A stretch of DNA of 64,000 nucleotides from Alphaproteobacteria bacterium (GTDB lineage Bacteria; Pseudomonadota; Alphaproteobacteria; JAAXGF01), in the NCBI GenBank assembly GCA_963555825.3, contig CAUVXB020000002.1:1792001-1856000 (forward strand), in the 5' to 3' direction. Shown here in pieces: positions 1 through 62,507 of the stretch. How positions within the stretch are numbered: the first letter of the stretch is position 1; each line of letters opens with the position of its first letter. Position numbers and translations under genes: made by a program. The notes beneath the pieces were generated by a model. That model saw nothing but the letters and a program-made list of their open reading frames with translations, searched no databases and was not told where the DNA came from.

Positions 1-86
1 GTCGCGTACAGCAGCATGAAGATGTGCGAATAGGCGTGTCCGACGCAGGCGAATGCGAGCGACAGACCCGACGATTTCTCCGACAT
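1..86 (-). CDS. MFS transporter, N-terminal fragment (runs off window)
   Basis: Reverse strand from ATG at 86 reads MSEKSSGLSLAFACVGHAYSHIFMLLYA, resembling the start of Fsr-like MFS transporters. Confidence 0.55.
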   Translation of the reverse strand, partial: MSEKSSGLSLAFACVGHAYSHIFMLLYA

Positions 87-564
87 GTTTGAGCCTCGGC
101 GCCCAGGAATAACGACTAACGGTTTAGAGCGTTATGGCCGGCGCGGCAAACGTCGCGATCAGTCGTCCCGCGCCGCTTCGGCCGGCCCGAGCGCGTGTTG
201 CAGGGCGCCGAGGTGCCGCTCGAACAAGCGCCAGCGTTCGACCGACGAGGAGTAGATCGGGCGCCGCACCTGGGCCGCGCTGGCGGTCAGCACGGGCCGC
301 TCGGTCTTGTCGAAGTCGAGACAGCGGTCGTCCCAGTCGAGACCGCAGTGCGCGACCAGGCGGCGCGCCGCGCCCTCGAGGTCGGCGACGACGTCCTCGT
401 AACGCAGCTCGCAAATGCGCCCGGGCAACACCGCCCGCCAGTGGCCCATCATGCGCTCGTACAGCCGGTAGTAGAGGCCGAGCTCGGTGAGGTCGTGAGC
501 TATAACCGAATCTTGACGGGGCGGTAAAAAGTCGATTCCTCATGAGAGTCGGCTGGATTATAAT

Positions 565-2206
565 CCGACATTCCCCAGATGATATCCAAATTCGCGGAAA
601 TCGTACCACGGCCCCATCTCCAAGGGAACTCTGTTCCCATTGCAGCCATCCGATGACATGATTTTGGTAATCGGCCAGCGCGTGGAAGGCCATTTGGTCG
701 TTTCTCTTGCCATCCAGACACACCTCTCGTGTCGCAATCTCCTTGCCGTCGATTCCCTCGGCCTACGCCGGAGCGGGTCTTCGTCGTAGATCATCAATCA
801 GGCTCAAGATTTTCTGGAACAAGCTTCTGGTGACTGCAACCTCGGCCAATTGAAATGTGACGTACCGGCCATGGCTGACAACTTTCGCACCGATCTTGAC
901 CAGCTTCTCCCTCAGCGTCGTCAGCGACCATTGCTCCACGGCATCGGGCAACGCCAGGGTACGCATGAAGTTGCCGAGGTTATAGGCGAGTGCATGCAGC
1001 TGGAGCCGGACGGCATTGTTGCGTAACGAACGGCATGACAGCCGCGTCCACTTGATGGCGTTCTTGCCTTCCTTGATCCATTGCTCGGCAGTGCCGCGCT
1101 GATTGTAGAACGCAACAACCCGCTCGGCAGGACGGCTCAGGTTGGTGACGATGAAGCCGACGCGGGGATACAGTTCCCCTGAGTGCCACTCCACCTTGGC
1201 GACGACCCGGCGGGGCTCCGTCCAGCTACCGGCCCGATAGCTGAAGTTCGCGTAATACCGACGAACTTCCTTCGGCGGCCGACCGACGGGGCGCTTGAGC
1301 AGGTGCGCGATGCTGTCGTGCAGCACCTTGTTGGCCGGAAGCCGGATGGCGTACTTGAAGCCTTCCGCTTCCAGAAACTCATAAACCTCGGGCGAGGCGA
1401 AGGCGGCGTCACCACGGAAATAACGCCGGAGTGTCTTGTTCCGGTATCGAGCGACCACCGGGTCCAACACATCGCGCCATTCATGGGCGCTGTGCACGTT
1501 GCCCGGACGCAGGGCGCAACGCTCCAGATCGCCGAACTGGTTGAACACGAACAGCGGGTGATAGCACGTGCAGCCGAAGTGACCGTTGTAGGCCGTGCCC
1601 TCCTGGTCACCGTAGGTCGGGCTGACGGAGCTGTCCATGTCGAGCACGATAATCTTCGGCGGCTTGCGCTCGTTAACCTGGTCGATCCAGATGCCCAAAA
1701 GGTCAGCGAGCGCGGCGAGGTTGTCATTGGTGGCGAGTAACTCCGTCTCGAACCGGCCCATCTGGCTGGTCGATGCGCCGCCGCGCTCGACAGCCCTGCC
1801 GCCGACGATCCACCGCATCGCAGGATCGCGCCCCAGCCGGTCGGCGTCGTTCACGTCCTCGTACCCGGCGAGACGACCATAGACGGATTGGCGAAGGAGA
1901 CCGATGATGCCGTGCCAACCGTTCTTGCCGGTCCGGCTGTCAGCAATAACGTCACCGGCCAGCGTGGTCAGGCCGAGGGCTTCGTCCAGTTCACGATAGG
2001 CGAGCAGACCAGCGTCTGACGTGATCCGCGAACCGTGGAACTCGAACTTCAGTCTTCGGTCGAAAAACGCCCGCAGAAGCCCCCGATCCGACTCACCCTC
2101 CAGGTTCCGCATTCGACCCACCCTCCGTCTGATCTAATCCACTGATTCTTATACAGGAATCAGACGGAAACCGCATCAGATGGATCGGTCACTTGGGGAA
2201 TGCGGG
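565..2206 (-). mobile_element. IS1380-family element
   Basis: Imperfect IRs CCGACATTCCCCAG / CTTGGGGAATGCGGG. 5-bp TSD ATAAT at 560-564 and 2207-2211; the empty site is visible in copy 2 of the host IS. Confidence 0.92.
763..2121 (-). CDS. IS1380-family transposase
   Basis: Motifs ITSDAGLL, LDMDSS, GCTCYHPL, FRGDAAF, YNQRGTAEQWIKEGK. Confidence 0.93.
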   Translation of the reverse strand: MGRMRNLEGESDRGLLRAFFDRRLKFEFHGSRITSDAGLLAYRELDEALGLTTLAGDVIADSRTGKNGWHGIIGLLRQSVYGRLAGYEDVNDADRLGRDPAMRWIVGGRAVERGGASTSQMGRFETELLATNDNLAALADLLGIWIDQVNERKPPKIIVLDMDSSVSPTYGDQEGTAYNGHFGCTCYHPLFVFNQFGDLERCALRPGNVHSAHEWRDVLDPVVARYRNKTLRRYFRGDAAFASPEVYEFLEAEGFKYAIRLPANKVLHDSIAHLLKRPVGRPPKEVRRYYANFSYRAGSWTEPRRVVAKVEWHSGELYPRVGFIVTNLSRPAERVVAFYNQRGTAEQWIKEGKNAIKWTRLSCRSLRNNAVRLQLHALAYNLGNFMRTLALPDAVEQWSLTTLREKLVKIGAKVVSHGRYVTFQLAEVAVTRSLFQKILSLIDDLRRRPAPA

Positions 2207-2210
2207 ATAA

Positions 2211-3821
2211 TTGTGCATGTTTACTTTACGCGACCGACGGACTGGGGAATTGTTTGATCGCTGGTCCGATTTCGGGGACAAACGTCGGCGCCTGATGGAG
2301 CAATCCTGGGCCGGGGTTTTTCGGAACCATCTGCTTGTCGAACTTCCGGTTGACGATCTTTGCCGTCACCTTGATGAACGCATGGGCCGACCATCGAAGG
2401 ATCTACACGTTGTCATCGGGGTCTTGCTTTTGCAGCAGCTGCACGATCTGAGCGATGCAGAGACCGTCGAGGCCCTGGCCTTCAATATGGCGTGGCACTA
2501 TGCCTTGGACGTGCGCAGCGAAGCGGACAGCTATTTCTGTGAGAAAACCCTGCGCAACTATCGCCGTCTGTTTATCGAACAAGGTCTCGATGAATTGCTG
2601 TTCCGGTGTTTGACGGATCGGCTGGTGCAGGGGTTCTCTGTCGATACCAGCCACCAACGCATGGATTCGACGGCCCTTCGTTCGGCAATGCGGGCGCTGA
2701 CACGACTTGGTATCGTTGTTGAGAGCATCTCGAAGTTTGCCCGTGAGCTTGAGCGATATCATCCCGGTCTGCACGAGCAGATCAGCAAGGAGGTGATCCG
2801 CCGCTATGTCGATCGCGAGGGTAATGGCGCGTTCGCGAATACGGCGCCGAGTGTTTCAAAACGGCGCCTCGGCGAAGCGGGTCAGTATCTCCTAGCCCTG
2901 GTGCTGCAATTCCGTGACACGGCGGCGGCAAAGCTTTCCAGTTTTGCGATCCTGGAGAGGGTTCTGCGCGATCAGTTCGAGATCGTTGATGATGAGTATG
3001 GCGATCGTGACGCAACGCGCGCCGCGATTCGAGATCCAAAGGATGTGCCGTGCGATACCGTCGGCAATCCGGCCGACCCGGACGCGAGCTACAACGCGCA
3101 CAAGGGTCAAGGATACATGGCGCAGATCGTCGAAACCTATTGTGAAGATGTCAGTAACGAGGCGGTTGCCGCGACACCGGACCTCATCACCCACGTGGAG
3201 GTCCACAAGATGACGGTGCATGACGGCCATCGCTTAGCCGATGCGCTGGATGATCTGAGCGAGCGCGCGCTGACGCCGGCGGTGATGCTGGGTGATTCAC
3301 ATTACGGTTCCAGTGACAACATGGCTCTGACGCGCGAACAGAACATCAATCTCGTGGCGCCCGCACGACCGCCGAAAGGCGCCGTCTCGGGACGGTTGAC
3401 GTTGGAGGATTTCACTCTCAACGAAGAAGGCTTGGTCTTGCGCTGTCCCAATAACGTCGAACCGGTTTCAGCCTCGCTCGCCAAAGCCAAGCTGCAGGCC
3501 CGTTTCGACCTCTCCATCTGCCAAAAATGTCCCGATATACTGCGATGTCCCGTGCAGGCGGCCAAGCGTGACGGCCAATTTTCCCGCTTTCAATATACCC
3601 CGGCCAGGGCTGCCAACCAAAAGCGCCGGCTTTATGAACAAAGCGATGCCTTCCGCAACGTCTACAGATGGCGGGCCGGCATAGAAGCGACCATGTCGCG
3701 ATTAAAGTACCAGATGAACCTGGCTCACCTACGCATTCGCGGCATGCCGGCCATGCGCTACGTGGTCAATCTGCGTGCCCTCGGCCTCAATATCCGACGC
3801 TGCGCGGCAATCGCACCATAA
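2211..3821 (+). CDS. IS1182/IS5-like DDE transposase (DUF772-type N-terminus, Cys-containing C-terminal DDE region)
   Basis: 536 aa with GRPS...LLLQQLHDLSD, MDST, GDSHYGS, CP...CQKCP...CP and RAGIEATMSRLK. Start may be the ATG at 2217. Confidence 0.88.
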   Translation: MCMFTLRDRRTGELFDRWSDFGDKRRRLMEQSWAGVFRNHLLVELPVDDLCRHLDERMGRPSKDLHVVIGVLLLQQLHDLSDAETVEALAFNMAWHYALDVRSEADSYFCEKTLRNYRRLFIEQGLDELLFRCLTDRLVQGFSVDTSHQRMDSTALRSAMRALTRLGIVVESISKFARELERYHPGLHEQISKEVIRRYVDREGNGAFANTAPSVSKRRLGEAGQYLLALVLQFRDTAAAKLSSFAILERVLRDQFEIVDDEYGDRDATRAAIRDPKDVPCDTVGNPADPDASYNAHKGQGYMAQIVETYCEDVSNEAVAATPDLITHVEVHKMTVHDGHRLADALDDLSERALTPAVMLGDSHYGSSDNMALTREQNINLVAPARPPKGAVSGRLTLEDFTLNEEGLVLRCPNNVEPVSASLAKAKLQARFDLSICQKCPDILRCPVQAAKRDGQFSRFQYTPARAANQKRRLYEQSDAFRNVYRWRAGIEATMSRLKYQMNLAHLRIRGMPAMRYVVNLRALGLNIRRCAAIAP

Positions 3822-4050
3822 AAAACGAAGCCAAGGAGAAGCCAAGGGTAGGTAATATCAGGTTTTATCCACCAGCAACGCGGAGACAGGCAAATATTCT
3901 TCACCGAACCGCAAAGACCTGTACAAGCACGCCATCGGCCAACAACTTTTTACCGCCCCGTCGAATCTTGTGTACGGCGTTGAAATGAAGGCGGCGTATC
4001 CTGGTGATTGTTGATGTCACCACTTGAGCTAAGCCAAGGAAGGATACGCC

Positions 4051-5295
4051 ATGAAAGAGAATACCGTTGTTGCTTTTCAAAACCCATCTGATTTTCAGAA
4101 AGATCCGTTGACGGAAGTCCTACAAGCTGGAGCTCGCGAGTTGTTGGCCCAAGCCGTTGAGGCCGAGGTCTCCGTGTTTTTGGGTAGCCATGCGGCGCTT
4201 GTTGACGCCGCCGGCCGCCGCCGGGTTGTCCGCAATGGATATCTGCCGGAACGCTTCATCCAGACCGGGATCGGCCCGGTGAGCGTGCGCCAACCCCGTG
4301 TGCGGGACCGGGGGGACGGCGCCATCCGCTTCACGTCGGCGATCCTGCCGCGCTATCTGCGCCGCGCCAAGAGCCTGGAAGACCTTTTGCCATGGCTGTA
4401 TCTGAAGGGCATTTCCACCGGCGACTTCGGGGAAGCCTTGGCGGCGCTCCTGGGGAGCTCCGCGCCGGGGCTTTCGGCCTCCACGATCACCCGGCTGAAA
4501 GAGGTCTGGGGGGTTGAGGCGGAGCGCTGGCAACGGCGCGACCTCACGGCCAAGCGCTACGTCTATTTCTGGGTGGACGGCATCTATTTCAGCGCCCGCA
4601 TGGAGGAAGAGAAGCAGTGCATCCTGGTGATCGTCGGGGCCACGGACAAGGGACAGAAGGAACTGATCGCCATCGCCGACGGCTATCGCGAAAGTGAGCA
4701 GTCCTGGCTCGAAGTTCTGCTCGATCTCAAGCGGCGCGGCCTTGAAATGGGTCCGCAACTGGCGCTCGGCGACGGCGCGCTCGGCTTCTGGAAGGCGCTC
4801 CGCCAAGTCTACCCAGGCGCCCGCGAGCAACGCTGCTGGGTTCACAAGACGGGCAACGTCTTGAACAAGCTGCCCAAGGGTCTGCAAAAGAAAGCCAAGG
4901 GGCGCCTGCAAGACATCTGGATGGCCGAAACCAGGAAGGATGCCGAGAGCGCCTTCGACTTCTTCCTGGAAGCCTACGGGCCGAAGTACGACAAGGCCGC
5001 GGCCTGCCTGGCCAAGGACCGCGACGTCCTGCTGACGTTCTACGACTTCCCCGCCGAGCACTGGAAGCATGTACGCACGACCAACCCCATCGAGAGCACG
5101 TTCGCCACGGTTCGTCTGCGCACCTACCGGACCAAGGGCTGCCTGTCGCGCAAGACGGCGATGGCCATGGTCTTCAAACTATGCCAGTGCGCTCAGAGAA
5201 AATGGAGAAAACTCGATGGATCGAACCATCTCGCCGAGATCATTCGCGGCGTCAAATTCGTAGATGGAGAACGCCAGGATCGCGCCGCCGCATGA
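4051..5295 (+). CDS. IS256-family (Mutator-type) transposase
   Basis: RNGY, YFWVDGIY, GDGALG, QRCWVHK, RTTNPIES; protein identical to 61164..62408. Confidence 0.95.
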   Translation: MKENTVVAFQNPSDFQKDPLTEVLQAGARELLAQAVEAEVSVFLGSHAALVDAAGRRRVVRNGYLPERFIQTGIGPVSVRQPRVRDRGDGAIRFTSAILPRYLRRAKSLEDLLPWLYLKGISTGDFGEALAALLGSSAPGLSASTITRLKEVWGVEAERWQRRDLTAKRYVYFWVDGIYFSARMEEEKQCILVIVGATDKGQKELIAIADGYRESEQSWLEVLLDLKRRGLEMGPQLALGDGALGFWKALRQVYPGAREQRCWVHKTGNVLNKLPKGLQKKAKGRLQDIWMAETRKDAESAFDFFLEAYGPKYDKAAACLAKDRDVLLTFYDFPAEHWKHVRTTNPIESTFATVRLRTYRTKGCLSRKTAMAMVFKLCQCAQRKWRKLDGSNHLAEIIRGVKFVDGERQDRAAA

Positions 5296-5315
5296 TCAGC
5301 CCATACACAACTTTT

Positions 5316-7116
5316 GACGGGGCGGTAAAAAGTTGTTGGCCGATGGCGTGCTTGTACAGGTCTTTGCGGTTCGGTGAAGAATATTTGCCTGTCTCCGCGT
5401 TGCTGGTGGATAAAACCTGATATTACCTACCCTTGGCTTCTCCTTGGCTTCGTTTTTTATGGTGCGATTGCCGCGCAGCGTCGGATATTGAGGCCGAGGG
5501 CACGCAGATTGACCACGTAGCGCATGGCCGGCATGCCGCGAATGCGTAGGTGAGCCAGGTTCATCTGGTACTTTAATCGCGACATGGTCGCTTCTATGCC
5601 GGCCCGCCATCTGTAGACGTCGCGGAAGGCATCGCTTTGTTCATAAAGCCGGCGCTTTTGGTTGGCAGCCCTGGCCGGGGTATATTGAAAGCGGGAAAAT
5701 TGGCCGTCACGCTTGGCCGCCTGCACGGGACATCGCAGTATATCGGGACATTTTTGGCAGATGGAGAGGTCGAAACGGGCCTGCAGCTTGGCTTTGGCGA
5801 GCGAGGCTGAAACCGGTTCGACGTTATTGGGACAGCGCAAGACCAAGCCTTCTTCGTTGAGAGTGAAATCCTCCAACGTCAACCGTCCCGAGACGGCGCC
5901 TTTCGGCGGTCGTGCGGGCGCCACGAGATTGATGTTCTGTTCGCGCGTCAGAGCCATGTTGTCACTGGAACCGTAATGTGAATCACCCAGCATCACCGCC
6001 GGCGTCAGCGCGCGCTCGCTCAGATCATCCAGCGCATCGGCTAAGCGATGGCCGTCATGCACCGTCATCTTGTGGACCTCCACGTGGGTGATGAGGTCCG
6101 GTGTCGCGGCAACCGCCTCGTTACTGACATCTTCACAATAGGTTTCGACGATCTGCGCCATGTATCCTTGACCCTTGTGCGCGTTGTAGCTCGCGTCCGG
6201 GTCGGCCGGATTGCCGACGGTATCGCACGGCACATCCTTTGGATCTCGAATCGCGGCGCGCGTTGCGTCACGATCGCCATACTCATCATCAACGATCTCG
6301 AACTGATCGCGCAGAACCCTCTCCAGGATCGCAAAACTGAAAAGCTTTGCCGCCGCCGTGTCACGGAATTGCAGCACCAGGGCTAGGAGATACTGACCCG
6401 CTTCGCCGAGGCGCCGTTTTGAAACACTCGGCGCCGTATTCGCGAACGCGCCATTACCCTCGCGATCGACATAGCGGCGGATCACCTCCTTGCTGATCTG
6501 CTCGTGCAGACCGGGATGATATCGCTCAAGCTCACGGGCAAACTTCGAGATGCTCTCAACAACGATACCAAGTCGTGTCAGCGCCCGCATTGCCGAACGA
6601 AGGGCCGTCGAATCCATGCGTTGGTGGCTGGTATCGACAGAGAACCCCTGCACCAGCCGATCCGTCAAACACCGGAACAGCAATTCATCGAGACCTTGTT
6701 CGATAAACAGACGGCGATAGTTGCGCAGGGTTTTCTCACAGAAATAGCTGTCCGCTTCGCTGCGCACGTCCAAGGCATAGTGCCACGCCATATTGAAGGC
6801 CAGGGCCTCGACGGTCTCTGCATCGCTCAGATCGTGCAGCTGCTGCAAAAGCAAGACCCCGATGACAACGTGTAGATCCTTCGATGGTCGGCCCATGCGT
6901 TCATCAAGGTGACGGCAAAGATCGTCAACCGGAAGTTCGACAAGCAGATGGTTCCGAAAAACCCCGGCCCAGGATTGCTCCATCAGGCGCCGACGTTTGT
7001 CCCCGAAATCGGACCAGCGATCAAACAATTCCCCAGTCCGTCGGTCGCGTAAAGTAAACATGCACAATTATAATCCAGCCGACTCTCATGAGGAATCGAC
7101 TTTTTACCGCCCCGTC
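5316..7116 (-). mobile_element. IS1182/IS5-like element copy 2 (intact)
   Basis: Same IRs as copy 1. Duplicated target (C)AACTTTT(G) at 5308-5316 and 7116-7124, inside the IS256 right IR. Confidence 0.92.
5457..7067 (-). CDS. IS1182/IS5-like DDE transposase
   Basis: 536 aa; differs from copy 1 at two visible residues (KLSSF/KLFSF, FRNVY/FRDVY). Confidence 0.88.
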   Translation of the reverse strand: MCMFTLRDRRTGELFDRWSDFGDKRRRLMEQSWAGVFRNHLLVELPVDDLCRHLDERMGRPSKDLHVVIGVLLLQQLHDLSDAETVEALAFNMAWHYALDVRSEADSYFCEKTLRNYRRLFIEQGLDELLFRCLTDRLVQGFSVDTSHQRMDSTALRSAMRALTRLGIVVESISKFARELERYHPGLHEQISKEVIRRYVDREGNGAFANTAPSVSKRRLGEAGQYLLALVLQFRDTAAAKLFSFAILERVLRDQFEIVDDEYGDRDATRAAIRDPKDVPCDTVGNPADPDASYNAHKGQGYMAQIVETYCEDVSNEAVAATPDLITHVEVHKMTVHDGHRLADALDDLSERALTPAVMLGDSHYGSSDNMALTREQNINLVAPARPPKGAVSGRLTLEDFTLNEEGLVLRCPNNVEPVSASLAKAKLQARFDLSICQKCPDILRCPVQAAKRDGQFSRFQYTPARAANQKRRLYEQSDAFRDVYRWRAGIEATMSRLKYQMNLAHLRIRGMPAMRYVVNLRALGLNIRRCAAIAP

Positions 7117-9127
7117 AACTTTTGACAATAGCTCTGAGGTCGTAGGCGAAGGGCTGGCCCGAGGTGAACAGCGTCTTGTAACACGAGAAGCAGGTGTCCA
7201 TCGGATCGCGCCGACAGTGGATGATCCGCGCGGCCGGCAGCATGGCGTGGATCAGGCCGAGATGGCGATGGTTGAGCGGCATCTTGTCGGTGACCCGCGC
7301 GGCGTCAGGCGCCAGGGCGCGGAGCGCCGCGACATAGCTCTCGCCCAGCTCGCGCCACATCGCGCCATCGATCTCGGCGGCGCATTCGGGATAGCGGTGC
7401 GTCGACGACAGCCGGCGCGGCAGGCCATCGGCGAGGCGCATGATCTCGTCCAGCTCGCCACCGCCATGAACGGCGGGGTGGCTGGCCAGTATCTGCTCGA
7501 CCAGGGTGGTGCCCGAGCGCGGCATGCCGACGATGAAGACGGGCAGTTCGGCGCCGTCGCCGAGGCCGTCAGCGCGCGCGAGGAAGGCATCGTCGAAGCT
7601 TCGCGTGATGCGCTCGACGATGTCTGTTTCGTCGGCGATGTCGAAATCGATGGCGCCGCGCTTGAGCCGGTTGCCCCGCTCGATACAGTCGAACGCCGCG
7701 TCGTTGTCGCCGGTGTCTTCATGGGCCTTGCCGAGCGAGAACAGGAGCCGCGCCGCGTCGGCGTCGGTGAGCGACGGATCCGCGACGCGCGCCGTCAATG
7801 CGGCGATATCGTCGTCGCCCGGCTCGAAAGTCTTCACGGCGCTCATGTTGTGGTGTGCCTCGGCCAGGCCGGGATCGAACGCGAGCGCGCGGGCGTAGGC
7901 CGCGACGGCCTCGTCGAGCCGCCCCAGGTTGGCCAGCACCATGCCCAGGTTGTTGTGCGCCACGGCGAGTTCCGGCTGCAGCTCGAGCGCCTTGTGGCAC
8001 GCCGCGAGCGCCTCCTCCAGCGCGCCCTGGCCGGCCAGCGCGATGCCCAGGTTGTTGTAGGCCTCGGCGTAATCGGGCTTGATCTGGACGGCGCGGCGAT
8101 AGGCCGCCACCGCGTCGGCCTGGTTGCCGCGCGCTTCCAGTGCGGCGCCCAGGTTGAACTGCGCCTCGGCGAGGTCGGGCTCGAGCCTCAGCGCGCGGCG
8201 GTAGGCCGCCAACGCCTCGTCGAGTTCGCCCGAAAGTCGGAGCGCATTGCCCAGGGTGTTGTGCGCCTCGGCGCTGTTCGGATCGAGCGCGAGCGCCTGG
8301 CGGATTTCCGCGACCGCCCGGGCGGGCTCGCCGAGTTCGACCAACGTCGCGCCAAGGCGGCTCCGCCATTCGGCCGCGTCGGGGCGCAGCGCGAGCGCCT
8401 TGCGAAAGGCCGTCGCGGCCGCCTCGTGCGCGCCCTGCGCGTGGCGCGCCATGGCCAGGGTGGCCTGCGCCTCGGCATAGTCGGGCCGCAGCTCGAGTGC
8501 TCTCAAGCAGGCGACGGCCGCGTCGTCGGCACGGCCCGACGCCAGCTCGGCGCGGCCCAGGTTGTTGTGCGCCATGGCGTAGTCGGGCTCGAGCGCGACG
8601 GCGCGGCGGCAGGCGGCGGCGGCGTCTGCGGGCCTGCCGAGGTCGAGGAGCGTGACCCCCAGGTTGTTGTGCGCCGTGGCGAAGTTCGGGGCGGCGGCGA
8701 CGGCGTTTTGAAAAGCCGCCAGGGCCTCTTCGGCCGCGCCCCGTTCCTTGAGGATGTTGCCCAGGTTGTAGTGCGCCTCGGCGTCGTCGGGCGCCGCCGC
8801 GATGGCGCGCCGGATGAGGTCGACGGCCGCGGCGGCATCGCCCCTCTGGTAGCGGATGACGCCGAGCAGATGCAGGGCACCGGCCTGGTCGGGCTGGCGC
8901 GCCAGAACATCGGCGCAGAGCCGCGCGGCCTCGTCGAGCCGGCCGGCGCGCTGGTGGCCCAGCGCCGTCTTGAGCGCTTGATCCGCCGATGCCGCGCCAC
9001 CGCCCCGAGCGGGTTGTCGACCGGCCTTGCCTGACGCGCGTCGTTGCTTCCTGTTCATCGGCTACCGCGAAGACGTGAGTTGAGCCCGGACCATGATACC
9101 CTACCGAAACCGGCCCGCGGTCATTCC

Positions 9128-61132: not shown

Positions 61133-62507
61133 GAGCTATTGTCAAAAGTTGTGTATGGGCTGATCATGCGGCGGCGCGATCCTGGCGTTCTCCATCTACG
61201 AATTTGACGCCGCGAATGATCTCGGCGAGATGGTTCGATCCATCGAGTTTTCTCCATTTTCTCTGAGCGCACTGGCATAGTTTGAAGACCATGGCCATCG
61301 CCGTCTTGCGCGACAGGCAGCCCTTGGTCCGGTAGGTGCGCAGACGAACCGTGGCGAACGTGCTCTCGATGGGGTTGGTCGTGCGTACATGCTTCCAGTG
61401 CTCGGCGGGGAAGTCGTAGAACGTCAGCAGGACGTCGCGGTCCTTGGCCAGGCAGGCCGCGGCCTTGTCGTACTTCGGCCCGTAGGCTTCCAGGAAGAAG
61501 TCGAAGGCGCTCTCGGCATCCTTCCTGGTTTCGGCCATCCAGATGTCTTGCAGGCGCCCCTTGGCTTTCTTTTGCAGACCCTTGGGCAGCTTGTTCAAGA
61601 CGTTGCCCGTCTTGTGAACCCAGCAGCGTTGCTCGCGGGCGCCTGGGTAGACTTGGCGGAGCGCCTTCCAGAAGCCGAGCGCGCCGTCGCCGAGCGCCAG
61701 TTGCGGACCCATTTCAAGGCCGCGCCGCTTGAGATCGAGCAGAACTTCGAGCCAGGACTGCTCACTTTCGCGATAGCCGTCGGCGATGGCGATCAGTTCC
61801 TTCTGTCCCTTGTCCGTGGCCCCGACGATCACCAGGATGCACTGCTTCTCTTCCTCCATGCGGGCGCTGAAATAGATGCCGTCCACCCAGAAATAGACGT
61901 AGCGCTTGGCCGTGAGGTCGCGCCGTTGCCAGCGCTCCGCCTCAACCCCCCAGACCTCTTTCAGCCGGGTGATCGTGGAGGCCGAAAGCCCCGGCGCGGA
62001 GCTCCCCAGGAGCGCCGCCAAGGCTTCCCCGAAGTCGCCGGTGGAAATGCCCTTCAGATACAGCCATGGCAAAAGGTCTTCCAGGCTCTTGGCGCGGCGC
62101 AGATAGCGCGGCAGGATCGCCGACGTGAAGCGGATGGCGCCGTCCCCCCGGTCCCGCACACGGGGTTGGCGCACGCTCACCGGGCCGATCCCGGTCTGGA
62201 TGAAGCGTTCCGGCAGATATCCATTGCGGACAACCCGGCGGCGGCCGGCGGCGTCAACAAGCGCCGCATGGCTACCCAAAAACACGGAGACCTCGGCCTC
62301 AACGGCTTGGGCCAACAACTCGCGAGCTCCAGCTTGTAGGACTTCCGTCAACGGATCTTTCTGAAAATCAGATGGGTTTTGAAAAGCAACAACGGTATTC
62401 TCTTTCATGGCGTATCCTTCCTTGGCTTAGCTCAAGTGGTGACATCAACAATCACCAGGATACGCCGCCTTCATTTCAACGCCGTACACAAGATTCGGTT
62501 ATAGCTC
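61133..62507 (-). mobile_element. IS256-family element, intact copy (1375 bp)
   Basis: IRs GAGCTATTGTCAAAAGTTGTGTA / TACACAAGATTCGGTTATAGCTC. 9-bp TSD GCCACGCGC at 61124-61132 and 62508-62516. Confidence 0.96.
61164..62408 (-). CDS. IS256-family transposase
   Basis: Identical to the 4051..5295 protein. Confidence 0.95.
   Translation of the reverse strand: MKENTVVAFQNPSDFQKDPLTEVLQAGARELLAQAVEAEVSVFLGSHAALVDAAGRRRVVRNGYLPERFIQTGIGPVSVRQPRVRDRGDGAIRFTSAILPRYLRRAKSLEDLLPWLYLKGISTGDFGEALAALLGSSAPGLSASTITRLKEVWGVEAERWQRRDLTAKRYVYFWVDGIYFSARMEEEKQCILVIVGATDKGQKELIAIADGYRESEQSWLEVLLDLKRRGLEMGPQLALGDGALGFWKALRQVYPGAREQRCWVHKTGNVLNKLPKGLQKKAKGRLQDIWMAETRKDAESAFDFFLEAYGPKYDKAAACLAKDRDVLLTFYDFPAEHWKHVRTTNPIESTFATVRLRTYRTKGCLSRKTAMAMVFKLCQCAQRKWRKLDGSNHLAEIIRGVKFVDGERQDRAAA

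What the first reader, a model, noticed from the sequence alone, without database searches (positions are those of the whole stretch)
497..7134. An IS1182-like element inserted at the identical register of both terminal inverted repeats of an IS256 (candidate IS-targeting hyperparasite)
Seen: compared with the intact IS256 at 61133-62507, one invader copy sits in the left IR (GAGCTATAAC[CGAATCTTG]TGTA) and one in the right IR (GAGCTATTGT[CAAAAGTTG]TGTA read inward). Both duplications cover IR positions 11-19 (12-18 under the 7-bp reading), although the duplicated sequences differ. Both copies point their transposase inward. Each has its own TSD and they differ at two residues, so these look like two separate insertions. 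Known: IR-targeting is described for IS4321/IS5075 (IS110 family, Tn21-type IRs) and IS231 (IS4 family, Tn4430 IRs); I know of no IS1182-like/IS256 pair. Inference: the invader recognises the IS256 end (GAGCTAT-N9-TTGTGTA) or the IS256 transposase bound to it, and cuts at a fixed offset.
Basis: partly seen in the sequence, partly recalled or inferred. Interest (0 to 1): 0.9.

Follow-up and report, generated by a model that had tools for sequence, protein, structure and literature searches.

The report
Insertion sequence that hunts IS256 ends
A 1.8-kb jumping gene in this bacterium lands almost only inside the end-repeats of another jumping gene (IS256 type), always at the same seven bases, so it is a mobile element that specialises in, and breaks, another mobile element.

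Summary
Window 497-7134 is one IS256-family element, bounded by its own 9-bp duplication. Each terminal repeat is split at positions 12-18 by a copy of an 1801-bp IS1182-like element with a 7-bp duplication. The left copy is itself split by an IS1380-family element.

Genome-wide, 73 of 75 invader ends abut IS256-family end sequence at this register. The other 2 flank one copy at a look-alike site. Both orientations occur (17 inward, 20 outward), so "both inward" is not a rule.

All 113 matches to the 19-nt motif in the genome are IS256-type tips, and 38 are occupied. The palindromic core alone occurs 7,691 times.

Relatives of the transposase down to about 50% identity sit at the same register of diverse IS256-type tips in other genomes, one plasmid and metagenomes. 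In a genome with 31 copies and no detectable IS256 transposase, the element uses look-alike sites (14 of 62 flanks against 0.8 expected).

The best reading is that the element's own DDE transposase recognises GAG[C/A]TAT-N3-C-RA-N3-TY. It cuts 7 bp apart, four bases in from the heptamer.

I found no report of this pair in the paper library. I rate it a new variant of transposon-end targeting. It is untested at the bench.

The parts
488..496 (.). Left copy of the 9-bp duplication (TGAGGTCGT) made when the IS256-family element inserted here
   Evidence: Identical 9-mer at 7135-7143. Contigs of runs X1, X3 and X18 join 487 to 7135 with 9 shared letters, which is the empty site.
497..514 (+). Outer 18 nt of the IS256-A left terminal repeat. 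Positions 1-11 are GAGCTATAACC. Positions 12-18 are GAATCTT, the first copy of the invader's duplication.
   Evidence: Matches the intact copy at 62507-62490 on the reverse strand.
515..3962 (+). Invader copy L. The 1801-bp IS1182-like element is in two pieces (515-564 and 2212-3962) with terminal repeats GACGGGGCGGTAAAAAGT. Its transposase ORF is 2211-3821.
   Evidence: Inverted-repeat pairs I1, I2 and I14. BLAST 1-49 and 45-1799. Pfam DUF772 + DDE_Tnp_1_6.
565..2206 (-). IS1380-family element (1642 bp; transposase 763-2121 on the - strand) nested in invader copy L. Its 5-bp duplication ATAAT lies at 560-564 and 2207-2211.
   Evidence: NCBIfam IS1380 at 391 bits against a cut-off of 180. Pfam DDE_Tnp_1_4. 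Inverted repeat I15. Overlap of 45-49 between the two BLAST pieces.
3963..3969 (.). Second copy of the 7-bp duplication GAATCTT for invader copy L
   Evidence: Read directly from the sequence.
3970..5308 (+). Interior of IS256-A (positions 19 to 1357), with the Mutator-type transposase ORF at 4051-5295
   Evidence: NCBIfam IS256 at 320 bits against a cut-off of 150. Pfam Transposase_mut. 100% identity to the intact copy over 9-1365.
5309..5315 (.). First copy of the 7-bp duplication AACTTTT for invader copy R (right repeat positions 18-12)
   Evidence: Read directly from the sequence.
5316..7116 (-). Invader copy R, an intact 1801-bp element with transposase ORF 5457-7067 on the - strand
   Evidence: 100% full-length BLAST match. 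534 of 536 residues identical to copy L.
7117..7134 (-). Second copy of AACTTTT (7117-7123) plus the outer 11 nt of the IS256-A right repeat (7124-7134, GAGCTATTGTC on the - strand)
   Evidence: Matches the intact copy at 61133-61150.
7135..7143 (.). Right copy of the 9-bp IS256 duplication TGAGGTCGT
61133..62507 (-). Intact reference copy of IS256-A (1375 bp) flanked by the 9-bp duplication GCCACGCGC

Best explanation
The 1801-bp element is an autonomous insertion sequence. It has 18-bp perfect terminal repeats, GACGGGGCGGTAAAAAGT. Its transposase of about 534-536 aa carries DUF772 and DDE_Tnp_1_6 and is distantly IS1182-like.

The transposase chooses its target by DNA sequence. It recognises the outer end of IS256-family terminal repeats. 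The consensus, in positions counted from the IS256 tip, is GAG[C/A]TAT (1-7), N3, C (11), R-A-N3-T-Y (12-18), then G.

It makes cuts staggered by 7 bp at positions 11/12 and 18/19, four bases inside the heptamer. It inserts in either orientation.

The core C-RA-N3-TY-G is palindromic, as expected for a two-fold symmetric transposase complex. The heptamer on one side supplies most of the specificity.

Consequences (inferred): the IS256 end is split, leaving 18 nt of tip separated from the rest by 1.8 kb, and is probably disabled. Elements hit at both ends can invert, as the window's arrangement would allow, or lose their core by recombination between the two invader copies. That leaves solo invaders flanked by two IS256 tips. 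IS256 ends serve the invader as harmless and abundant landing sites.

Shown: the anatomy, the register, both orientations, the genome-wide exclusivity, conservation across the clade, and use of look-alike sites without IS256.

Inferred: that the transposase itself reads the motif, which domain does so, and the effect on IS256 activity.
For: Own genome
- 36 left and 39 right invader ends were found. 73 of the 75 abut IS256-family end sequence at the same register. The other 2 flank one copy at the look-alike site GAACTAT-ATC-C-GATCATC, with a clean 7-bp duplication and no IS256 gene nearby.
- 24 of 25 full-length copies have identical 7-bp duplications on both sides.
- Three different repeat sequences from two IS256-type elements (76% DNA identity, about 70% protein identity) are hit, each in both orientations.
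- The full 19-nt motif occurs 113 times. All 113 are IS256-type tips, and 38 are occupied. The palindromic core alone occurs 7,691 times.
- The SNP haplotypes of 24 ungapped full-length copies are not partitioned by target class.

Other genomes
- Homologs of 52-88% protein identity abut GAGCTAT-type tips or IS256 genes (L032, L034, L037, L038, L045, L046, L050, L051, L053).
- A 71% homolog on a Microvirga plasmid sits between two such tips.

Metagenome contigs
- 75 unique flanks came from 53 of 80 loci. 19 have at least 6 of 7 matches to GAG[C/A]TAT at the IS256 register, against at most 1 at each of 15 other offsets.
- Pooled over all data sets there are 45 distinct tip sequences. Controls gave at most 2 at any of 19 other offsets.

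Sequence rather than partner protein
- G001 gave 0 hits to the IS256 transposase model but holds 31 distinct full copies.
- 14 of its 62 unique flanks match GAGCTAT at 5 or more of 7 positions in register. That compares with 0.8 expected (binomial P 8e-14). Of the 25 other offsets scanned, 24 gave 0-2 and offset -1 gave 5.

The locus itself
- The 9-bp IS256 duplication surrounds the composite. The empty site is present in three runs.
Against: - The right repeat of the second IS256-type element (GAGCTATGTCCGAAAGTTG) carries the full motif but is occupied in 0 of 16 copies. Its left repeat is occupied in 10 of 15. A pure sequence-reading model does not explain this.
- Insertion regenerates the whole 19-nt motif on the tip side, because the element begins with G. 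Even so, the own genome has no tandem re-insertions.
- In G001 only 14 of 62 flanks reach 5 of 7, which is under half of the 31 copies. The heptamer is therefore a preference and not a requirement.
- G001's completeness was not given, so a missed IS256 gene cannot be excluded.
- Copies at different loci are not proven to be independent insertions. Gene conversion and recombination among copies are evident.
- There is no biochemical or genetic test. The structure model was too poor to locate a DNA-reading surface.
Confidence: 0.82

Rival explanations
1. The invader recognises IS256 transposase bound to its terminal repeat, or the IS256 synaptic complex, rather than the naked DNA motif.
For: - Association with IS256-type ends is near-exclusive in the own genome.
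- The right repeat of the second element has the motif but is never used, 0 of 16. That could reflect different occupancy by its transposase.
Against: - G001 has no IS256-family transposase hit but 31 copies, with the heptamer enriched at the exact register.
- The own genome has one insertion at a look-alike site with no IS256 gene nearby.
- Tips of many different IS256-type elements, 45 distinct sequences, are used by relatives.
Confidence: 0.07
2. Only a few original insertions happened. Most copies arose because IS256 carrying an invader kept transposing or being duplicated as a unit, so the apparent specificity is inflated by hitch-hiking.
For: - The whole composite in the window is flanked by a 9-bp IS256-type duplication.
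- The tip plus the invader's first base keep 19 nt of the IS256 repeat intact.
- The 10 versus 0 asymmetry between the two ends of the second element would be less surprising if the events were few.
- The Microvirga unit of tip, invader and tip is flanked by a 9-bp direct repeat.
Against: - At least six classes exist in one genome (three repeats, each in two orientations), plus a look-alike site and a relic.
- Haplotypes are shared across classes.
- The same register is seen on 45 distinct tips in unrelated genomes and metagenomes.
- G001 has no IS256 to ride on.
- A flanking 9-bp duplication is equally expected if the invaders arrived after IS256 did.
Confidence: 0.06
3. The element has only a weak preference for the palindromic core CRA-N3-TYG. 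Selection removes harmful insertions, so only those in neutral DNA such as other insertion sequences survive.
For: - The core is visible on both flanks in G001.
- Relatives at 39-45% identity show core-like duplications without the heptamer.
Against: - The genome has 7,691 core sites, but occupied sites are confined to the 113 that also carry the heptamer.
- No invader end abuts the genome's many IS1380-like copies or any repeat other than IS256-type ends, although those should be equally neutral.
- In G001 the heptamer is enriched at one register only.
Confidence: 0.03
4. The nested arrangement is an assembly artefact caused by repeats.
For: The region consists of high-copy repeats, and no single contig or read spanning all 6.6 kb was seen.
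Against: - The genome is in 2 contigs.
- Contigs of run X15 cross host, tip and invader at both outer junctions.
- The same junction types recur at 37 tips with different host flanks.
- Three other doubly invaded copies exist.
Confidence: 0.02

Closest known systems
[quoted passage not shown]
   Same: An insertion sequence whose preferred or exclusive target is a fixed position inside the terminal repeat of another transposable element. I saw only the title of Partridge and Hall 2003, in the reference list of PMC11208160. The details below are recalled.
   Different: Those elements use a DEDD recombinase. From recall, they insert in one orientation without a target duplication, and the family is now known to be guided by a bridge RNA (abstract listing of PMC11208160). 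Here the enzyme has Pfam DDE domains, makes a 7-bp duplication and uses both orientations. No copy of the heptamer lies inside the element, and no Rfam family matches.
IS231A (IS4 family), with a preference for the ends of Tn4430
   Same: A DDE insertion sequence with a preferred target in the terminal repeat of another transposon. This is recalled.
   Different: It is a different family, and its host element is a Tn3-family transposon rather than an insertion sequence. From recall, the IS231 preference is a hot spot among many other sites. Here 73 of 75 ends in one genome are at the target, and the trait holds across a clade down to about 50% identity.
IS1182 family proper (for example IS1272)
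   Same: The Pfam architecture DUF772 + DDE_Tnp_1_6 is shared, and the best NCBIfam model is IS1182. IS1272 is reported to target inverted-repeat structures (abstract of PMC5678879).
   Different: The score of 172 bits is below the 270-bit cut-off. Identity to transposases annotated as IS1182 family on plasmids is at most 28%. According to that abstract, IS1272 inserts without target duplications by replacing the repeat. This element makes a clean 7-bp duplication at a sequence motif.
IS30-type targeting of hot-spot sequences and of its own inverted repeats (recalled, not checked here)
   Same: A DDE transposase that can select a long, specific DNA target, including the ends of insertion sequences.
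   Different: IS30 targets its own ends and a palindromic consensus. Here the target is the end of a different family and the decisive part of the motif is asymmetric.

Membership tests
IS1182 family (invader) | Transposase scores above the curated cut-off of the NCBIfam IS1182 model NF033551 | tested here: not met
   172.2 bits against a cut-off of 270. It is still the best-scoring family.
IS1182 family (invader) | Pfam architecture DUF772 (PF05598) followed by DDE_Tnp_1_6 (PF13751) | tested here: met
   Both domains are above their cut-offs in both copies and in most homologs.
IS1182 family (invader) | Sequence kinship with named family members | tested here: inconclusive
   Identity to plasmid proteins annotated 'IS1182 family transposase' or 'ISMno10' is at most 28% over about 90% of the length. 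Close homologs are named only 'transposase' or 'hypothetical'. ISfinder could not be queried.
IS1182 family (invader) | Terminal inverted repeats and a short target duplication (the family ranges are recalled) | tested here: met
   18-bp perfect repeats (pairs I8 and I14). 7-bp duplication, identical on both sides in 24 of 25 full copies.
DDE transposases | Conserved acidic catalytic residues and the Y-R-E-K signature near the last one | tested here: inconclusive
   D362, E492, Y485, R488 and K499 are invariant and D152 nearly so in 82 sequences. The assignment of the triad is my inference. The structure model was poor and the Foldseek search of PDB gave nothing at E <= 0.001.
Transposon-end-targeting elements of the IS1111 / IS110 type | DEDD recombinase, insertion without a duplication, one orientation | tested here: not met
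   Pfam finds DDE domains only. There is a 7-bp duplication, and both orientations occur, 17 against 20.
Transposon-end-targeting elements (functional class) | Insertions concentrated at one fixed position of another element's terminal repeat | tested here: met
   73 of 75 ends in the own genome. Register controls.
IS256 family (the targeted element) | Mutator-type transposase above the NCBIfam IS256 cut-off, with 8-9-bp target duplications | tested here: met
   320 bits against a cut-off of 150. 12 of 15 fully intact copies have perfect 9-bp duplications and 1 has 8 bp.
IS1380 family (element nested in the left invader) | Transposase above the NCBIfam IS1380 cut-off, with a short duplication | tested here: met
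   391 bits against a cut-off of 180. 5-bp ATAAT duplication.

The most novel reading that the evidence does not exclude
This is a whole clade of DDE insertion sequences, with transposases down to about 50% identity and found in several bacterial orders and many metagenomes. These elements are dedicated hunters of IS256-family ends. Their transposase carries a built-in reader for an asymmetric motif of about 12 specified bases and cuts at a fixed 4-base offset. It needs no protein or RNA from the prey element. By splitting the repeats, and then promoting deletion of the core, the clade acts as a natural brake on IS256 expansions. It would also be a compact, protein-only, sequence-specific DDE insertion system of a kind not described for this superfamily.
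Probability: 0.4. Interest if true: 0.8.

Novelty: new variant of a known kind. Interest (0 to 1): 0.68.

Why it matters
Most DDE insertion sequences choose targets loosely. The few that home in on the ends of other transposons are mainly IS110-type elements, which use a different enzyme and, as is now known, a guide RNA.

This element shows near-exclusive, register-exact targeting of another insertion-sequence family. The same behaviour recurs across a broad clade and across habitats. That would give a clean natural system for asking how a DDE transposase reads a long target sequence.

It would also document parasitism between insertion sequences. That interaction can inactivate, invert or delete IS256 copies in genomes undergoing IS expansion. 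Here the genome occurs in runs labelled sponge metagenome.

There is a practical side for annotation. Tip-invader-tip units and tandem copies could otherwise be misread as new composite elements.

Tried and rejected
- Structure. AlphaFold2 on a 13-sequence alignment gave mean pLDDT 48.5. On 82 sequences it gave 66.3, pTM 0.54, with only residues of about 340-490 confident. The Foldseek search of PDB gave 0 matches at E <= 0.001. The best were short, non-significant overlaps with retroviral integrase cores. I draw no structural conclusion beyond four invariant cysteines, C412, C437, C440 and C446.

- Guide-RNA idea. No copy of GAGCTAT lies inside either invader copy. There was no Rfam match in 1-8000 at E <= 0.1. 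The 3' non-coding 150 nt do not align between distant homologs.

- Hitch-hiking test by haplotypes. It was not decisive, because gene conversion blurs lineages.

- Relatives. The element was not found by DNA in 25 other genomes searched, 12 of them from the same family. Many of these are fragmented, at 200-500 contigs, so this is weak.

- Literature. Searches found no report of an IS1182-like element targeting IS256 ends. The library lacks most subscription journals, and ISfinder/TnCentral could not be consulted. Supplementary files were not opened.

- Script faults. My first pairing script for G001 double-counted reversed loci, so its numbers are superseded. The 'inner-like' class rests on a crude pattern and is only indicative.

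- Depth figures were not used for any claim.


Full report
**Anatomy of the window**

ORF listing, repeat finding and direct reading, together with Pfam and NCBIfam scans, show three nested insertion sequences.

The outermost is an IS256-family element, which I call IS256-A. It is 1375 bp, with a 414-aa Mutator-type transposase that scores 320 bits on the NCBIfam IS256 model against a cut-off of 150. An intact copy lies at 61133-62507, flanked by the 9-bp duplication GCCACGCGC.

At 497-7134 the same element is bounded by another 9-bp duplication, TGAGGTCGT, at 488-496 and 7135-7143. Here each of its terminal repeats is split by an 1801-bp element.

That element has 18-bp perfect ends, GACGGGGCGGTAAAAAGT, and a 536-aa transposase carrying DUF772 and DDE_Tnp_1_6. 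The left copy occupies 515-3962 and the right copy 5316-7116.

Each copy has its own 7-bp duplication, GAATCTT on the left and AACTTTT on the right. In both cases the duplication covers positions 12-18 counted from the IS256 tip.

The two transposases differ at 2 of 536 residues. The left copy is itself interrupted, just upstream of its transposase start, by a 1642-bp IS1380-family element at 565-2206, with the duplication ATAAT.

The composite interrupts a gene for a protein with TPR repeats and a sulfotransferase domain.

**Is the locus real?**

Contigs of run X15 cross both outer junctions, reading host, then tip, then invader. X15 may be the sample the window was assembled from.

Contigs of runs X1, X3 and X18, from three studies, join 487 directly to 7135 with nine shared letters. 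That is the empty site with one copy of the 9-bp duplication.

The insertion is therefore polymorphic among related populations. No piece spanned the whole 6.6 kb, so the internal order rests on the two-contig assembly.

**Genome-wide test**

BLAST of the invader against the 6.04-Mb genome found 36 left and 39 right ends. I classified every flank.
- 73 of the 75 ends abut IS256-family end sequence at the same register.
- The other 2 are the two flanks of one copy at GAACTAT-ATC-C-GATCATC. This site has a clean 7-bp duplication and no IS256-family gene nearby.

The occupied targets are the left and right repeats of IS256-A and the left repeat of a second element, IS256-B. IS256-B is 76% identical to A in DNA and about 70% in protein.

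IS256-B settles the length of the duplication. Its intact tip and the outer copy at occupied tips read TGAATCTTG, while the inner copy reads CGAATCTTG. The flanking C and G therefore belong to the invader, and the duplication is 7 bp.

24 of 25 full-length copies have identical 7-bp duplications.

Both orientations occur: 17 tips adjoin the invader's left end and 20 adjoin its right end. The window's 'both inward' arrangement is thus one of several.

Of 33 IS256-A cores:
- 15 are intact at both ends;
- 12 are invaded at one end;
- 4 are invaded at both ends;
- 2 are otherwise truncated.

Occupancy by tip type:

| Tip | Occupied | Total |
|---|---|---|
| IS256-A right repeat | 14 | 43 |
| IS256-A left repeat | 13 | 38 |
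| IS256-B left repeat | 10 | 15 |
| IS256-B right repeat | 0 | 16 |
| Relic tip | 1 | 1 |

One further degenerate IS256-A left tip is also occupied.

The pattern GAG[C/A/T]TAT-N3-Y-RA-N3-TY-G occurs 113 times in the genome, and every occurrence is one of these tips. The palindromic core CRA-N3-TYG alone occurs 7,691 times.

**Secondary products**

Recombination between copies is visible in several ways.
- One copy has mismatched duplications.
- Three invader units are flanked by tips on both sides (G000 C1 525863-529095, C2 767367-770329 and C2 3360198-3363430). This is what deletion of the IS256 core between two direct invader copies would leave.
- One IS256-A copy is inserted inside an invader.

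The SNP haplotypes of 24 ungapped full copies are shared across target classes.

**Other genomes**

A scan of one genome per species returned 53 loci. Copies 97-99% identical occur in genomes whose record titles name several alphaproteobacterial orders and one other phylum. In contrast, 25 relatives of the window's genome lack the element by DNA. This points to horizontal spread.

Homologs of 52-88% protein identity again abut GAGCTAT-type tips or IS256-family genes. tblastn found an IS256-family gene in 10 of the 53 loci.

The only close plasmid homolog, at 71% in a Microvirga plasmid, lies between two tips that are in turn flanked by a 9-bp direct repeat.

80 metagenome loci at 39-86% identity gave 75 unique flanks from 53 loci. 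19 of these match GAG[C/A]TAT at 6 or more of 7 positions at the IS256 register. At most 1 does so at each of 15 other offsets.

All 22 flanks that the script classed as tips (5 or more of 7 matches) come from loci of 50% identity or more, within L086-L128. None comes from L129-L164, at 39-45%.

Pooled, there are 45 distinct tip sequences.

**DNA motif or partner protein?**

G001, the genome holding L003 and 20 other loci, gave no hit to the IS256 transposase model. It nevertheless holds 31 distinct full copies.

Its sites are ordinary genomic DNA, but 14 of 62 unique flanks match GAGCTAT at 5 or more of 7 positions, exactly at the IS256 register. Of the 25 other offsets scanned, 24 gave 0-2 and offset -1 gave 5. 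The expected number is 0.8, with a binomial P of 8e-14.

The unselected flank profile also shows the symmetric core: C at position 11, R at 12, A at 13, T at 17 and Y at 18.

This favours direct reading of DNA by the element's own transposase. The caveat is that the completeness of G001 was not reported.

**Mechanism proposed**

A DDE transposase complex binds the palindromic core symmetrically and gains most of its specificity from the heptamer four bases away on one side. It cuts with a 7-bp stagger and inserts in either orientation.

Four invariant cysteines (C412, C437, C440, C446) lie just upstream of the invariant Y485-R488-E492-K499 signature. They form a candidate zinc motif.

Whether that motif or the N-terminal DUF772 region reads the heptamer is unknown, because structure prediction and fold search were uninformative.

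Splitting the IS256 repeat probably disables that end. This is inferred.

**Unexplained**

- The right repeat of IS256-B is never used, although it carries the full motif (0 of 16).
- The own genome has no tandem re-insertions, although the tip-side junction regenerates the full motif.
- Head-to-tail tandems with a 7-nt spacer do occur in six loci elsewhere (L013, L036, L051, L098, L099, L126) and in a contig of run X18. Their spacers often differ from the flanking duplications. That hints at a circular intermediate with a 7-nt junction which recombined with a resident copy. This is speculation.

**Comparison and novelty**

The behaviour resembles IS4321/IS5075 in Tn21-type repeats and IS231 at Tn4430 ends. 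Both comparisons are largely recalled; I saw only titles or reference lines.

The enzyme class, the 7-bp duplication, the use of both orientations and the prey family all differ.

The element is only loosely IS1182-like. It scores 172 bits against a cut-off of 270, and identity to annotated members is at most 28%.

Seven searches of the paper library found no report of this association.

I rate this a new variant of a known kind. The sequence evidence is strong, and there is no bench test.

Noticed in passing
window 565-2206: An IS1380-family element (1642 bp, 5-bp duplication ATAAT) is inserted in the left invader copy, directly upstream of that copy's transposase start. It separates the gene from its native 49-nt leader. 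Another invader copy in the genome (G000 C1 1503705) also begins at invader position 45, but next to different DNA.
   Followed up: partly
window 488-496 and 7135-7143; window 1-496 and 7144-9058 (- strand): The whole composite has a 9-bp IS256-type duplication and interrupts a gene for a TPR-repeat plus sulfotransferase protein. Nine or so 102-bp (34-aa) repeats lie at 7836-8835. The uninterrupted allele is present in contigs of runs X1, X3 and X18.
   Followed up: partly
G000 contigs C1 and C2 (IS256-B copies, e.g. C2 947550-948927): The right terminal repeat of the second IS256-type element, GAGCTATGTCCGAAAGTTG, is never occupied by the invader (0 of 16). Its left repeat is occupied in 10 of 15.
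   Followed up: partly
L013, L036, L051, L098, L099, L126; contig of run X18: Head-to-tail tandem copies of the invader or its relatives, separated by exactly 7 nt. The spacer often differs from the outer duplications.
   Followed up: partly
G000 C2 2832172-2833546: An intact IS256-A copy sits inside an invader copy, with the 9-bp duplication CCAGGTTCA. The two elements therefore disrupt each other.
   Followed up: no
G000 whole genome: The genome is very rich in insertion sequences. It holds about 40 invader copies, 33 IS256-A cores, about 14 IS256-B copies and several dozen IS1380-family copies in at least three identity classes. Runs holding the window's words are mostly labelled sponge metagenome.
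   Followed up: no
G001 (loci L003-L023, L054-L083): Only 13 of 31 full invader copies keep identical 7-nt duplications. This implies many rearrangements by recombination between copies in that genome.
   Followed up: no
L129-L164 (metagenome relatives at 39-45% identity): More distant relatives keep the ...GTAAAAAGT end motif and core-like flanks (CAA..TT) but lack the IS256-type heptamer. The IS256 specificity therefore seems to have arisen within the family.
   Followed up: no
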